From a virus (Duplodnaviria; Heunggongvirae; Uroviricota; Caudoviricetes): a stretch of DNA of 23,891 nt. The stretch lies in IMG/VR virus record IMGVR_UViG_3300025896_000021; one strand, given 5' to 3'. The position numbers and the translations under genes were made by a program. Below are positions 22,726 through 23,891 of this stretch, piece after piece; the first letter of the stretch is position 1; each line of letters opens with the position of its first letter. The notes below the pieces were generated by a model. It worked only from the letters and a program-made list of their open reading frames with translations, ran no database searches and was not told the DNA's origin.

Positions 22726-23268
22726 TTAGTGGTGAGAACGAATCTCACCCTTCAATGCGTCTTTAACCATCATATCAAAATCTGATACGACACGACCAGT
22801 ACTGTCAAAAGCTACATCACGGGCACGATACTTTTCCATGCCAGTCACTGCTCCATGAACGTGGCCATAAAAGTGAACTGAACCGCGGTGCATTTGATCC
22901 CATTCCCAGATAGGGTAATGCATCATAATGACCATTTGACCATCGTGATTGTATCTCAGGTACTGATGCACTTCTTTGAACTCTGCACGGAATGCAGGGT
23001 CGTTCAACAGTTTGCGGTCGTGATTACCTTCAATCAGAATCTTAGTGCCGTTCAGTCTACGCAGAATTGCAACTGCATCCTTGGCTGACAAGAATGCAAA
23101 GTCACCCAAAATGAATGTTTCATCTTCTGGAGCAACGTCACGGTTCCACTCATGTATCATTTGCTCTCGCATATGATCGGTGTCAGTAAAGCCTGCTCGG
23201 GTTACTGGGCAGAACTTCATAATATTTGCGTGACCAAAGTGTAAGTCACTAGTGATAAATTTTCTCAT
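22726..23268 (-). CDS. Calcineurin-like metallophosphoesterase
   Basis: DxH (SDLHFGH), GD (ILGDF), GNHD, HYP and GHVH motifs. Confidence 0.9.
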   Translation of the reverse strand: MRKFITSDLHFGHANIMKFCPVTRAGFTDTDHMREQMIHEWNRDVAPEDETFILGDFAFLSAKDAVAILRRLNGTKILIEGNHDRKLLNDPAFRAEFKEVHQYLRYNHDGQMVIMMHYPIWEWDQMHRGSVHFYGHVHGAVTGMEKYRARDVAFDSTGRVVSDFDMMVKDALKGEIRSHH

Positions 23269-23291
23269 GGTATTTCTCTGTTTATGCTGTT

Positions 23292-23320
23292 ATTATAGCA
23301 CACCATGCAATTAGTGTCAA
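23292..23320 (-). promoter_or_regulatory. sigma70 promoter TTGACA-17-TATAAT, extended -10
   Basis: Perfect consensus upstream of the phosphoesterase-Rnl1 operon. Confidence 0.9.
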
Positions 23321-23410
23321 GTAAACACCCTAGTTGCTCTGATATAAATTAATGTAATAAAATAAAGAACGTAAGGTATGCGAATGTTCGTCTAGGGTGT
23401 TTAATTGACA
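23315..23410. repeat. 19-bp inverted repeat (18/19) flanking a 58-bp A/T-rich spacer
   Basis: TGTCAAGTAAACACCCTAG (23315-23333) versus CTAGGGTGTTTAATTGACA (23392-23410). Confidence 0.85.
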
Positions 23411-23435
23411 ATAGGTCACCAAGTGACCTATTTTT
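23410..23435 (+). terminator. 10-bp hairpin AATAGGTCAC-caa-GTGACCTATT followed by a T-run
   Basis: Perfect stem; T-tract on the plus side. On the minus strand it could cap the 3' end of the candidate ncRNA. Confidence 0.6.
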
Positions 23436-23440
23436 ATAGA

Positions 23441-23810
23441 ATTAGTGTTAGGCTACTCACACCACATGAGCCCCTAACTGAGCAGTTACTCTGTCCACAA
23501 CATTTATTCTTCTGGAGTAGGCGTTATACCTCACCCAATGCGTTCCCGCTACTCCTTAATGGGAGACGGATGGTCAATGCACTGCACACCTAGCACTCTC
23601 TTTGGTGACTGCCCCACCCCCGTTGATTACGTGTACGGGATCACGGGTTTTTAATTTGATACATCAACAAGTGCTTACCCTGAGAAAGGATTTACGGCTA
23701 GCCAGCACCTCGATGTTGTTAAGAAGGATGTCTCCATTGCTATCTTTTAAACTTCAATATATCAAAAAGAGAACAGATACGTAATTGCTCAGAGGTATCT
23801 GCCGTGTTAC
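23441..23810 (-). ncRNA. Candidate large structured non-coding RNA (family not identified)
   Basis: No credible ORF; serial helices that pair better on the minus strand (G-U pairs); late motif upstream and hairpin downstream. Confidence 0.55.
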
Positions 23811-23813
23811 AAC

Positions 23814-23821
23814 TATTTAGC
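23814..23821 (-). promoter_or_regulatory. Late-promoter-like motif GCTAAATA
   Basis: Immediately after the upstream stop codon and before the candidate ncRNA. Confidence 0.55.
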
Positions 23822-23890
23822 TTATTCAGCCAAATCGTAGCGACTGTTCATCACTGCCTTAAGCATGATAGCTTCTGGAGTGAAAGCGTC
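23822..23890 (-). CDS. 3' end of a gene entering from the right (...DAFTPEAIMLKAVMNSRYDLAE*)
   Basis: Open frame from the window edge to TAA 23822-23824. Confidence 0.5.
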   Translation of the reverse strand, partial: DAFTPEAIMLKAVMNSRYDLAE

Positions 23891-23891
23891 T

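What the first reader, a model, noticed from the sequence alone, without database searches (positions are those of the whole stretch)
23441..23810. Candidate ~370-nt structured ncRNA expressed from a late-type promoter
Seen on the minus strand, after GCTAAATA: GGCAGATAC/GTATCTGTT (23795-23803 with 23772-23780, two G-U); AGGTGCT/AGCACTT closing a junction with GGCTAGCC and TCCT/AGGG; CCCGT/ACGGG; GGTGG/TCACC; GGAGTAG/CTACTCC (23549-23555 with 23514-23520); GACAG/CTG(C)TC; GTTAGG/CCTAAC (23473-23478 with 23447-23452) enclosing CTCAT/GTGAG; then a 10-bp terminal hairpin. The G-U pairs become A-C mismatches on the plus strand. It is the only long non-coding stretch in an otherwise gene-packed window. 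Known: aquatic phages carry large ornate RNAs of unknown function (GOLLD, ROOL and others). Inference: a member or new class of these. The first stem plus U-run may instead terminate the upstream gene, making the RNA shorter.
Basis: partly seen in the sequence, partly recalled or inferred. Interest (0 to 1): 0.8.

Follow-up and report, generated by a model that had tools for sequence, protein, structure and literature searches.

The report
New four-pseudoknot phage RNA family
The gene-free stretch after a Ro60-like gene of this uncultured giant freshwater phage encodes a real, intricately folded non-coding RNA whose 207-base core of four consecutive pseudoknots recurs in at least 67 distinct versions in uncultured phages, mostly glued to the end of a tRNA or protein gene, and matches no described RNA family; its function is unknown.

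Summary
Window 23444-23650 (minus strand) is a full-length member of an RNA family absent from Rfam 15. Its 207-nt core has four consecutive H-type pseudoknots and two 3' hairpins; the last hairpin shows a nearly constant UGUGGUG loop. Across 60 homologues, 94% of cells in 43 nested pairs form standard pairs, 42 of the 43 pairs show compensatory changes, and the pseudoknot stems covary too.

In the window the core carries two optional 5' parts. One is a 112-nt accessory domain (23655-23766), also supported by covariation, with an 8-mer that stays self-complementary in four spellings. The other is a hairpin (23772-23803).

Two are not supported, and all the pseudoknots were missed.

The upstream gene (DUF2828/DUF7788) is a full-length structural homologue of Ro60. 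However, the RNA lacks Y-RNA hallmarks, also follows tRNAs or an unrelated ~190-aa protein gene, and occurs in a 99%-complete phage genome with no Ro60-like gene.

It is not GOLLD or ROOL, though it is the same kind of thing: an ornate phage RNA of tRNA islands. Function is inferred only. The scan noted likely relatives on other DNA before.

The parts
23821..23891 (-). 3' end of the upstream gene (cut by the window end; stop TAA at 23821-23823). It is a DUF2828/DUF7788 protein, a Ro60-like ring plus vWA domain.
   Evidence: The C-terminus aligns with L002:2-631. Pfam gives DUF7788 and DUF2828. An AlphaFold model of the full-length relative (pLDDT 88) has Ro60/TROVE structures as its top 13 PDB matches, E 1.6e-8 to 3.7e-5.
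23814..23820 (-). CTAAATA, a T4-late-promoter-like heptamer directly after the stop codon. A possible own start signal; not shown.
   Evidence: The motif is not enriched in the window (5 against 4.1 expected), but every copy is in an upstream, sense position. The same motif starts 10-18 nt before the core in L018, L114, L097 and L007.
23772..23803 (-). 5' hairpin GGCAGAUAC/GUAUCUGUU (two G-U pairs, 14-nt loop), followed by CUCUUUUU. Either a 5' cap hairpin of the RNA or a leaky terminator of the upstream gene.
   Evidence: Compensatory changes in relatives: GGCAGAUGC/GCAUCUGUU in L087 and L002, GGCAAAGAC/GUCUUUGUU in L145 and L122. The terminator scan did not call it because the loop exceeds 8 nt.
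23655..23766 (-). Optional 5' accessory domain ('module A'). Closing stem 23757-23766 with 23655-23664; GAAG/CUUC stem; three-way junction GAGGUGCU/AGCACUU holding GGCUAGCC (23696-23703) and hairpin UCCUUUCUCAGGG (23678-23690).
   Evidence: Found in about 10 distinct sequences. RNAalifold predicts 26 pairs, 10 of them with compensatory changes. The 8-mer is a perfect palindrome in four spellings: GGCUAGCC, GGUGCACC, GGCAUGCC, GGUAUACC.
23444..23650 (-). Conserved core RNA, 207 nt: four H-type pseudoknots, an extended hairpin, and two 3' hairpins.
   Evidence: Full-length covariance-model match: R1 E 7e-13; R2 122.6 bits, E 8.6e-32. Covariation.
23619..23645 (-). Pseudoknot a. Stem 1 CGUG (23642-23645) with CACG (23630-23633). 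Stem 2 CCCGU (23635-23639) with ACGGG (23619-23623).
   Evidence: Stem 2 is helix 1 (97.7% paired, 6 of 6 pairs with double changes). Stem 1 is helix 1, with variants CGGU/ACCG, CAGU/ACUG and CCGG/CCGG.
23592..23618 (-). Pseudoknot b. Stem 1 GGUGG (23614-23618) with UCACC (23604-23608). Stem 2 GGCA (23610-23613, in the loop of stem 1) with UGCU (23592-23595).
   Evidence: Helix 2 and helix 2. The same loop-to-downstream topology was seen in every sequence type inspected by eye. Window-type sequences are poorly aligned here by the model.
23536..23590 (-). Pseudoknot c with inserted hairpin. Stem 1 GGU (23588-23590) with ACC (23572-23574). Stem 2 CAGUGC (23579-23584) with GCAUUG (23536-23541). 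Hairpin CCGUCUCC...GGAGUAGCGG (23546-23569).
   Evidence: Helices 3 and 4; helices 3 and 4 (92.5% and 83.9% paired). Stem 2 occurs as CUAGG/UCUAG, UAGGAU/AUCCUA, UACUGU/ACAGUA, AGCAAU/AUUGCU and CAGUGC/GCAUUG.
23496..23535 (-). Pseudoknot d. Stem 1 GGUG (23532-23535) with CGCC (23520-23523). Loop UAUAA (23524-23528) pairs with UUGUG (23496-23500) across an A-rich linker.
   Evidence: Helices 5 and 6; helix 5. Stem 2 variants: ACG/CGU, ACGCA/UGCGU, ACCUU/AAGGU, GUAGUU/AACUGC, CAAGGGC/GCUCUUG, UGCGA/UCGCA.
23447..23495 (-). 3' hairpins. A short irregular hairpin (A23492-U23481, G23491-C23482, loop with GUAAC). Then the terminal hairpin GUUAGG/CCUAAC plus CUCA/UGAG with loop UGUGGUG (23460-23466).
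   Evidence: Helix 6 (95.8% paired, 19 and 7 double changes). Helices 7 and 8 (100% and 99.6% paired). The loop is kept in 6 of 7 copies retrieved without using it.
23410..23432 (-). 10-bp hairpin AAUAGGUCAC/GUGACCUAUU after the core. No U-run on this strand; the U-run lies on the plus strand. A likely 3' boundary or bidirectional terminator.
   Evidence: Relatives carry a different ~100-nt module here.

Best explanation
The stretch encodes a member of an undescribed family of phage structured RNAs.

Shown:
- A 207-nt core (23444-23650, minus strand) folds into four consecutive H-type pseudoknots, one of which carries an inserted hairpin. Two 3' hairpins follow, the last presenting a nearly constant UGUGGUG loop.
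- In this phage the core carries an optional 112-nt 5' domain and a 5' hairpin.
- The family occurs in many uncultured large phages. It almost always lies on the same strand as a tRNA gene or a protein gene and directly after it.

Inferred:
- The RNA is transcribed together with its upstream neighbour. Here that means read-through from the Ro60-like gene and/or a start at the CTAAATA motif.
- It is cut free by the host enzymes that process tRNA precursors.
- It persists as a compact, nuclease-resistant, trans-acting RNA of the same kind as the tRNA-island 'ornate' RNAs GOLLD and ROOL.
- It binds a conserved partner through the UGUGGUG loop.
- In the window's variant it pairs with a second copy through the self-complementary GGCUAGCC.
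For: Structure:
- On 60 homologues, 43 nested pairs are 94.2% paired, against 35-44% when partners are slid.
- 42 of the 43 pairs show changes on both sides. The covariation score is 0.63, against at most 0.10 for slid versions; 0 of 500 shuffles reach it.
- 20 further pairs (pseudoknot stems and a small hairpin), to which the alignment was not fitted, are 77% paired against 20-42% slid, with score 0.27 against at most 0.053.
- Module A has 26 predicted pairs, 10 of them compensatory.

Strand: G-U pairs outnumber A-C, 197 to 103, and all copies are co-oriented with flanking tRNAs.

Fourteen more full-length matches came from metagenome loci and re-fetched genome loci, seven of them new distinct cores, and others came from protein-anchored loci.

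Processing and co-transcription: of 67 distinct cores, 22 start -1 to +7 nt after a tRNA 3' end, and 20 start -4 to +14 nt after an ORF stop. Several are followed by a tRNA within 4-8 nt, so the RNA exactly fills the spacer (L112, L137, L118, L169).

Kind: GOLLD and ROOL are phage RNAs 'often near tRNA islands'. GOLLD has a conserved 3' region and a variable 5' region, and both form homo-oligomers (PMC12286853). Here too the 3' core is conserved and the 5' part variable. The 8-mer in module A stays palindromic in four spellings.
Against:
- Single-sequence folding energy is not unusual (z = -1.75).
- Part of the homologue set was retrieved with a pattern inside the terminal hairpin. The constancy of that hairpin is therefore partly built in, although 6 of 7 copies found through a neighbouring protein keep the loop.
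- The alignment was fitted to the nested structure, and the sequences are related, so shuffle counts are not probabilities.
- The partner of the UGUGGUG loop is unknown.
- One module A sequence (L093) breaks the palindrome.
- The tight abutment to upstream genes fits a cis-acting role at least as well as a trans-acting one.
Confidence: 0.55

Rival explanations
1. Y-RNA-like partner. The RNA is the cognate non-coding RNA of the adjacent Ro60-like (DUF2828/DUF7788) protein. It would bind the protein's ring and tune or tether its RNA-quality-control activity, as bacterial and phage Y RNAs do with Ro60/Rsr and PNPase.
For: - The upstream protein is a full-length structural homologue of Ro60; the top 13 PDB matches include phage phiLo Ro60 and Deinococcus Rsr.
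- In one phage clade the RNA follows this gene directly, 0-200 nt away on the same strand, in more than 20 distinct variants.
- Y RNAs are typically encoded within 4 kb of Ro60 on the same strand, and also in phages (PMC4201824; PMC12135203).
- The window is an RNA-repair neighbourhood with two RNA ligases and a phosphoesterase.
Against: - G008, a 99%-complete 343-kb phage genome, has the RNA but gives no match to the protein, to DUF7788 or to TROVE.
- About two thirds of distinct cores follow a tRNA or an unrelated ~190-aa protein instead.
- All Ro60-adjacent cases come from one clade, with protein at least 69% identical to the L084 query, so they count as roughly one evolutionary event.
- No match to Rfam's YrlA model (accession RF02553, as named in an earlier scan note) or to any other Rfam family; no tRNA-like arms.
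- The GNCGAA motif is absent from the RNA. Its only copy in the gap lies in a different element at 23387-23392.
- Ten loci (six distinct spacer types) have this gene followed by a spacer of only 81-112 nt that shares no detectable core sequence.
Confidence: 0.2
2. Cis-acting 3'-end element. The RNA works on the transcript it is attached to. It could be a large ribozyme or processing signal that cuts at its own 5' edge and so makes the 3' end of the upstream tRNA or mRNA, as HDV-like theta ribozymes do beside phage tRNAs. Or it could be a compact knot that stops 3'-to-5' exonucleases.
For: - Position is the most constant feature. 42 of 67 distinct cores begin within a few nucleotides of the end of the upstream tRNA (at least 10 anticodon types) or ORF (two unrelated proteins), always on the same strand.
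- The 5' edge AAACCC is highly conserved and appears unpaired.
- There is precedent: 1753 theta ribozymes lie with their cleavage site next to phage tRNAs (PMC10879173).
- Stacked pseudoknots are a known way to block exonucleases (established knowledge of xrRNAs).
Against: - No resemblance to any known self-cleaving class: no Rfam hit, and the topology is four simple H-type knots rather than a nested double pseudoknot.
- 207 nt is large for a self-cleaver.
- In the window and about 18 other variants the core is separated from the upstream gene by other structured modules, so there is no 3' end to make there.
- When a tRNA follows within 4-8 nt, RNase P would free the RNA's 3' end anyway.
Confidence: 0.2
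3. Not an RNA gene. The conservation would reflect a DNA-level element (recombination cassette, origin, protein-binding array) or a decayed or small protein-coding gene.
For: The region lies in a mosaic, hyperplastic part of the genome. Modules come and go between close relatives, and an inverted repeat plus a strong early promoter lies next to it, resembling the PeSL shuffling cassettes of T4-type phages (PMC2839356). Plus-strand ORFs of 60-62 aa overlap it.
Against: - Sequence varies while pairing is kept, in 42 of 43 pairs plus the pseudoknots. No DNA-binding or coding model predicts this.
- G-U pairs are tolerated on one strand only.
- Indels between homologues are not multiples of three.
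- Placement inside tRNA operons, with ends coinciding with tRNA ends.
Confidence: 0.03
4. A divergent member of GOLLD or ROOL.
For: The same habitat and neighbourhood (aquatic phages, tRNA islands), multiple pseudoknots, and a conserved 3' part with a variable 5' part.
Against: - No match to any Rfam 15 model even at E<=10 with relaxed filters. This holds for the window and for a tRNA-flanked relative, and at gathering thresholds for nine relatives.
- The core is 207 nt, against more than 800 nt for many GOLLD RNAs and roughly 580 nt for ROOL (from memory).
Confidence: 0.02

Closest known systems
GOLLD and ROOL RNAs (large 'ornate' RNAs of phages and prophages)
   Same: - Phage-encoded, of unknown function, and often next to or inside tRNA islands.
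- Many pseudoknots.
- Like GOLLD, a conserved 3' region with a variable 5' region, and copies directly downstream of tRNA-Met (PMC12286853).
- A covariation-preserved self-complementary 8-mer in the window's 5' domain hints at self-association, which GOLLD and ROOL are shown to do.
   Different: - No sequence or model similarity.
- Two to four times smaller.
- The architecture is a linear string of four small H-type pseudoknots rather than large multi-branched domains.
- Oligomerisation here is only inferred.
Bacterial and phage Y RNAs (YrlA, Yrn1; Yrl1 and Yrl2 of Thermus phage phiLo) with Ro60/Rsr
   Same: In the window the RNA lies directly downstream of, and co-oriented with, a Ro60-fold protein gene. 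Y RNAs also occur in phage tRNA arrays and are processed by tRNA enzymes (PMC4201824).
   Different: - No GNCGAA/CGAA motif in the RNA.
- No tRNA-like T and D arms, and no match to Rfam's YrlA model or any other family.
- Roughly twice as long (size of Y RNAs from memory), and pseudoknotted.
- Present in a near-complete genome without any Ro60-like gene.
Phage T4 'species 1' and 'species 2' stable RNAs (rnaC, rnaD) of the T4 tRNA gene cluster (my own knowledge, not checked here)
   Same: Stable non-tRNA RNAs of unknown function, co-transcribed with the tRNAs of a T4-type phage and released by tRNA processing.
   Different: The model R2 finds nothing in the whole T4 genome. The T4 RNAs are shorter (about 120-140 nt) and are not known to be multi-pseudoknotted.
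HDV-like theta ribozymes beside phage tRNAs (Kienbeck et al. 2024, PMC10879173)
   Same: A structured RNA placed with its 5' edge against the 3' end of a phage tRNA.
   Different: Theta ribozymes are minimal (roughly 50-60 nt, from memory) nested double pseudoknots with proven self-scission. This RNA is 207 nt with a different topology, gives no HDV-family match, and its activity is untested.
tmRNA
   Same: A string of small H-type pseudoknots (four in tmRNA; my own knowledge); also encoded by some large phages near tRNAs.
   Different: - No tRNA-like domain.
- No conserved tag reading frame: stops fall at different places, and the region covaries as helices.
- ARAGORN and the Rfam tmRNA models find nothing.

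Membership tests
GOLLD / ROOL (Rfam models) | Significant match to the family covariance model | tested here: not met
   cmscan found no hit at gathering score. At E<=10 with relaxed filters it found no hit on window 23250-23891 or on the tRNA-flanked relative L112.
GOLLD / ROOL (Rfam models) | Very large size (ROOL roughly 580 nt, from memory; many GOLLD over 800 nt) | tested here: not met
   The core is 207 nt. With all the window's add-ons the RNA is at most about 410 nt.
GOLLD / ROOL (Rfam models) | Encoded by phages or prophages, often near tRNA islands | tested here: met
   22 of 67 distinct cores abut a tRNA 3' end, and many sit inside arrays of 10-45 tRNAs.
Y RNA (YrlA type) | Encoded near a Ro60 orthologue on the same strand | tested here: met
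   In the window the upstream gene is a Ro60-fold protein. This is not general for the family.
Y RNA (YrlA type) | GNCGAAN0-1G (CGAA) Ro60-binding motif near the 5' end | tested here: not met
   The pattern search finds no GNCGAA between 23410 and 23822. The only copy in the gap is at 23387-23392, in a different element.
Y RNA (YrlA type) | tRNA-like domain (T and D arms), or a match to Rfam's YrlA model | tested here: not met
   No Rfam match. ARAGORN finds no tRNA-like gene in the window.
Y RNA (YrlA type) | Physical binding to the Ro60 protein | not testable with these tools
   Needs a gel shift or co-purification. The complex-prediction tool handles proteins only.
tmRNA | tRNA-like acceptor/T-arm domain plus a tag-peptide reading frame | tested here: not met
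   ARAGORN finds none and there is no Rfam tmRNA hit. The candidate frame is not conserved between subtypes.
HDV-like (theta) self-cleaving ribozymes | Nested double pseudoknot (P1, P1.1, P2, P3, P4) with self-scission at the 5' edge | tested here: not met
   The topology found is four sequential H-type pseudoknots, with no Rfam HDV-family hit. Cleavage activity itself is not testable here.
Ro60 / TROVE protein family (for the upstream gene) | HEAT-repeat ring followed by a vWA domain with a MIDAS motif | tested here: met
   Foldseek aligns about 500 columns over the whole length to Ro60 structures (TM 0.43-0.63, E down to 1.6e-8). The DxSxS motif is invariant (D274, S276, S278). The Pfam TROVE model itself does not match, so this is a distant branch.
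T4-type late promoter | TATAAATA-like element about 6-8 nt before the transcript start, enriched before late genes | tested here: inconclusive
   CTAAATA lies at 23814-23820. There are 5 copies against 4.1 expected, all upstream of genes on the sense strand. The motif starts 10-18 nt before the core in four relatives but is absent in most. No transcript data are available.

The most novel reading that the evidence does not exclude
The core is a new class of large ribozyme or processing module that acts at its own 5' edge, defining the 3' ends of whatever tRNA or mRNA lies upstream. That would make it a phage-borne substitute for host 3'-end processing. Its UGUGGUG loop, which contains UGGU, would grip the NCCA end of tRNAs as T-box and RNase P RNAs do.
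Probability: 0.08. Interest if true: 0.92.

Novelty: new variant of a known kind. Interest (0 to 1): 0.72.

Why it matters
Large natural RNAs with intricate, covariation-proven folds and no known function are rare, and they have repeatedly led to new biology (riboswitches, ribozymes, and the RNA-only cages formed by GOLLD and ROOL).

This family is compact at 207 nt and very well supported. Its unusual build, four tandem pseudoknots, makes it an attractive target for cryo-EM or crystallography.

It recurs, in at least 67 distinct versions found here, in uncultured giant freshwater phages. There it sits in the genome's translation and RNA-repair neighbourhood: tRNA arrays, RNA ligases and a Ro60-like protein.

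Two further points follow:
- DUF2828/DUF7788 proteins, a family of more than 6000 sequence clusters, have the Ro60 fold. That opens the question of what RNAs they bind.
- The scan has now met pseudoknotted RNAs in phage tRNA islands several times, which suggests an under-described layer of phage RNA biology.

Tried and rejected
- Rfam 15 gave nothing relevant: at gathering score on the window; at E<=10 on the region (only chance miRNA, sRNA and snoRNA hits); at gathering score on nine relatives (tRNAs only); on the Ro60 locus of L084; and on a tRNA-flanked copy.
- blastn of two variants against 50,697 isolated phage genomes found no match.
- Model R2 searched against T4, KVP40, Agrobacterium phage Atu_ph07 and two large relatives found none.
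- Single-sequence folding z-scores were uninformative.
- MAFFT plus RNAalifold on 10 or 58 sequences recovered only part of the fold because the helices were misaligned. I replaced this with a hand-derived structure and Infernal realignment.
- tmRNA-type reading. A frame GCA UUG GAU CUA ... UAA exists in one subtype, but stops shift between subtypes and the region covaries as helices. Rejected.
- Mimicry of the 16S rRNA 3' end (shared UUGGAUC and GUAACA words). Expected by chance and absent in other subtypes. Rejected by inspection.
- K-turn, T-loop and anticodon-loop readings of the terminal hairpin. The patterns do not fit; rejected by inspection.
- Hits of the hairpin pattern in two bacterial MAGs were not confirmed by the model. 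Five metagenome hits match only the hairpin.
- Co-occurrence with the Ro60-like gene in five fragmentary contigs was uninformative, because they are only 14-39% complete.
- The ~190-aa upstream protein has no Pfam or PHROG assignment. It is absent from G006 and present in G007, which lacks the RNA, so it is not an obligatory partner either.
Full report
**Setting.** The window is the end of a 73.7-kb IMG/VR contig. CheckV puts it at 21% complete, which implies a phage of roughly 350 kb. The window's minus strand is the contig's plus strand. Genes run on the minus strand.

The finding lies between two genes:
- Upstream is the truncated 3' end of a gene whose stop is at 23821-23823.
- Downstream is a phosphoesterase gene (22726-23268), preceded by a perfect sigma-70 promoter, TTGACA-17-TATAAT, at 23292-23320.

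The neighbourhood holds two RNA ligases and a phosphoesterase.

**The observation.** No minus-strand ORF of 30 aa or more lies in 23441-23810. Rfam 15 finds nothing at gathering score, and nothing relevant at E<=10. ARAGORN finds no tRNA or tmRNA.

The folding energy of the single sequence is ordinary: z = -1.75 on the minus strand and -2.18 on the plus strand. Sequence alone therefore cannot decide, and I turned to relatives.

**Relatives.**
- Anchoring on the phosphoesterase protein fetched 80 related viral loci.
- The spacer after the upstream gene varies from 81 to 733 nt and is a mosaic of shared blocks.
- Three relatives align with the window across about 400 nt and already show compensatory changes.
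- Two short DNA patterns brought in more loci.
- An HMM of the shared part found 92 hits, 58 of them distinct.

This showed that the unit common to all is a core of about 207 nt. The window's first ~170 nt are optional extras.

**Structure of the core.** I read the helices from the 58-sequence alignment and wrote a nested subset of 43 pairs on one representative. From it I built a covariance model (R1) and realigned all homologues.

The window matches full length at 23444-23650 (R1 E 7e-13). A second model, built from the 60-sequence alignment, gives 122.6 bits and E 8.6e-32.

On that alignment:
- 94.2% of cells form standard pairs, against 69% in shuffles and 35-44% when partners are slid by 1-3 columns.
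- 42 of 43 pairs show changes on both sides.
- The covariation score is 0.63, against at most 0.10 for the slid versions.

Twenty further pairs were not part of the model, so the alignment was not fitted to them. These are the second stems of the four pseudoknots and a small hairpin. They are 77% paired against 20-42% when slid, with a score of 0.27 against at most 0.053.

The fold, from 5' to 3':
1. Pseudoknot a.
2. Pseudoknot b.
3. Pseudoknot c, whose third loop holds an extended hairpin.
4. Pseudoknot d, with a long A-rich third loop.
5. A short irregular hairpin around GUAAC.
6. A terminal hairpin with an internal loop and the heptaloop UGUGGUG.

Window coordinates of every stem are listed under 'parts'.

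G-U pairs outnumber A-C mismatches, 197 to 103. Every copy is co-oriented with its flanking tRNAs or genes. The RNA strand is therefore the window's minus strand.

**Caveats.**
- Many homologues were fetched with a 15-mer inside the terminal hairpin, so that hairpin's constancy is partly built in.
- However, in seven copies retrieved through a neighbouring protein the inner stem covaries (CUCU/AGAG, CUCC/GGAG, CUCA/UGAG, CUUA/UAAG) and six keep the loop. One, like L066, has a different hairpin tip.
- The sequences are related, so shuffle counts are not probabilities.

**The window's extras.**
- Module A (23655-23766) occurs in about 10 distinct sequences, all downstream of the same upstream gene.
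- RNAalifold, run with no input structure from me, predicts 26 pairs, 10 of them with compensatory changes.
- The 8-mer GGCTAGCC appears in relatives as GGTGCACC, GGCATGCC or GGTATACC. All are perfect palindromes; L093 is the one exception.
- An 8-nt palindrome cannot fold on itself. Preserved self-complementarity in four spellings therefore points to pairing between two RNA molecules. This is an inference.
- The 5' hairpin (23772-23803) keeps its stem through double changes in relatives.

- GGAGTAG/CTACTCC is a perfect 7-bp match in the window. In relatives, though, GGAG changes together with the nearby CTCC (CUUG/CAAG in L113, UCCC/GGGA in L150), while the distal CTACTCC does not follow. The conserved fold uses the local hairpin.
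- GACAG/CTG(C)TC is in the wrong register. The covarying pairs are A23492-U23481 (A-U 37, G-C 19) and G23491-C23482.

**Genomic context of the family.** For 67 distinct cores:
- 22 begin -1 to +7 nt after the 3' end of a tRNA, of at least ten anticodon types.
- 20 begin -4 to +14 nt after the stop codon of a protein gene.
- About 19 are preceded by accessory hairpins or domains, as in the window.
- The rest are cut by contig ends.

Several copies exactly fill the spacer between two tRNAs, for example L112 4507-4712 between tRNA-Met and tRNA-Asn, and also L137, L118 and L169. One array (L181) holds two copies.

The upstream protein genes are of two unrelated kinds. One is the window's gene. The other is a ~190-aa protein with no family assignment. 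Of 22 loci fetched through that second protein, 12 carry the RNA, and 11 of those have it 4-7 nt after the gene.

This placement argues for co-transcription with the upstream gene and release by tRNA-processing enzymes. Both steps are inferred.

**The upstream gene.**
- A full-length relative (473 aa) has Pfam DUF2828 plus DUF7788 and a sub-threshold Ro60 vWA hit.
- The family is very large: 6083 clusters at 50% identity.
- An AlphaFold model built on a 36-sequence alignment (pLDDT 88, pTM 0.87) was searched against the PDB.
- Its 13 best matches are all Ro60/TROVE structures: Xenopus and human Ro60, Deinococcus Rsr and Thermus phage phiLo Ro60. They align over about 500 columns with E 1.6e-8 to 3.7e-5 and TM 0.43-0.63. 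Below them come only generic vWA domains.
- The gene therefore encodes a distant Ro60-like ring-plus-vWA protein.

**Is the RNA its Y RNA?** The adjacency is suggestive, since Y RNAs lie near Ro60 on the same strand, in phages too. Several tests go against it:
- The Ro60-binding motif GNCGAA is absent from the RNA.
- There are no tRNA-like arms and no Rfam match, Rfam's YrlA model included.
- All Ro60-adjacent copies come from one clade.
- Ten loci (six distinct spacer types) have the gene followed by only 81-112 nt that share no detectable core sequence.
- In complete genomes the two do not travel together. G006 (364 kb, 100% complete) has both, side by side. G008 (343 kb, 99%) has the RNA after the 190-aa gene and before tRNA-Gly, but gives no match to the protein, to DUF7788 or to TROVE. 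G007 (364 kb, 100%) has neither.

I keep this reading at about 0.2.

**Distribution.**
- No blastn match in 50,697 isolated phage genomes.
- No model hit in T4, KVP40 or Atu_ph07.
- Two hairpin-pattern hits in 185,579 prokaryote genomes were not confirmed by the model.
- Twelve metagenome loci and two re-fetched genome loci gave full-length matches, seven of them new distinct cores.
- The family thus appears confined, so far, to uncultured large phages.

**What it is like.** The nearest kind is the tRNA-island 'ornate' RNAs GOLLD and ROOL. They are phage-borne and pseudoknotted, have no known partner, and form homo-oligomers. GOLLD has a conserved 3' region and a variable 5' region.

Membership fails on the model match and on size. 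What is shared is the kind of RNA, not homology.

The strict 5' abutment also recalls the HDV-like theta ribozymes that sit against phage tRNA 3' ends. I therefore keep a cis-acting ribozyme or 3'-end role as a rival at 0.2.

Tandem small pseudoknots recall tmRNA. However, there is no tRNA-like domain and no conserved tag frame.

**Earlier notes of this scan.**
- A sequence look-up found an unassigned ~205-nt structured RNA between tRNA-Thr and tRNA-Gly in another genome that shares 10 of 65 short words with this core.
- It also found several other 'gene-free islands' that share a few short words.
- A word search showed that other pseudoknotted RNA families have been reported beside phage tRNAs and Ro60-like genes.

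I did not verify those records. They supplied leads: the theta-ribozyme paper, the PeSL paper, and the fact that YrlA is in Rfam.

**Not done.** No function was tested, and the mechanism given is inference from anatomy and context.

**Verdict.**
- A real and well-supported member of an apparently undescribed RNA family: confidence about 0.95 for 'structured RNA gene'.
- Trans-acting stable RNA: about 0.55.
- Partner of the Ro60-like protein: about 0.2.
- Cis-acting 3'-end element: about 0.2.

Noticed in passing
window 23322-23403 (minus strand), with promoter 23292-23320: A 12-bp perfect inverted repeat (UAAACACCCUAG / CUAGGGUGUUUA) encloses a 58-nt AT-rich loop and ends 2 nt before the -35 of a perfect early promoter. 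Relatives keep the stem through double changes (GCAUCC/GGAUGC, GUACCC/GGGUAC) and keep GACGAAC just inside it. That is the only GNCGAA in the gap, and GNCGAA is the Y-RNA motif. The element could be a PeSL-type terminator-promoter shuffling cassette (PMC2839356) or a small Y-like RNA.
   Followed up: partly
L084 8643-9254 (minus strand), upstream of the Ro60-like gene in the complete 364-kb relative: A second stretch of about 600 nt with no listed ORF of 60 aa or more lies in front of the Ro60-like gene, ahead of a TTGACA-17-TACAAT promoter. It gives no Rfam match apart from a chance hit. It could hold further RNA genes, including a true Y-RNA partner.
   Followed up: partly
L203 1709-2275 (-); also L066 338-910, L181 5674-6243, L147, L103: A ~190-aa phage protein family starting MNI(T/S)LRK..., with no Pfam or PHROG assignment, lies directly upstream of the RNA in many phages. 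In 11 of 22 loci the RNA starts 4-7 nt after its stop. It is a candidate second protein partner, or simply the gene at the head of the tRNA operon.
   Followed up: partly
L006 about 1300-1410; the same ORF sequence recurs in L084, downstream of the RNA: The ORF following the RNA in these relatives starts MKRVIEIRAAEGGDDSKLF..., which resembles the N-terminal part of class-I release factors (PrfH/RF-like). It appears short or truncated. Together with the RNA ligases and the Ro60-like gene, it suggests a ribosome and RNA-repair island.
   Followed up: no
L025 772-848, L056 767-843, L048 1661-1737, L007 1923-1999: Relatives carry a 77-nt tRNA called Leu (anticodon GAG or AAG) about 200-250 nt after the RNA. 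That is short for a tRNA-Leu, which normally has a long variable arm. The window lacks this tRNA; its promoter drives the phosphoesterase gene directly.
   Followed up: no
L181 6248-6452 and 8380-8583: One phage tRNA array holds two divergent copies of the core RNA. One follows the 190-aa gene and the other follows tRNA-Gly.
   Followed up: no
L209, L210, L217 (metagenome loci): The terminal hairpin with the UGUGGUG loop occurs alone, without the rest of the core. The model matches only positions 171-198. It may be a module shared with other RNAs.
   Followed up: no
L233 1776-1982 and L066 916-1114: A minority variant of the core replaces the UGUGGUG hairpin tip with CGG-AACAGGGAA-CCG (L233) or CGG-GACGGGAA-CCG (L066), while the outer stem and internal loop are kept.
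   Followed up: no
window 23845-23891: The last 47 bases of the window lie beyond the end of the IMG/VR contig held as the window's genome. The window therefore comes from a slightly longer version of the record.
   Followed up: no
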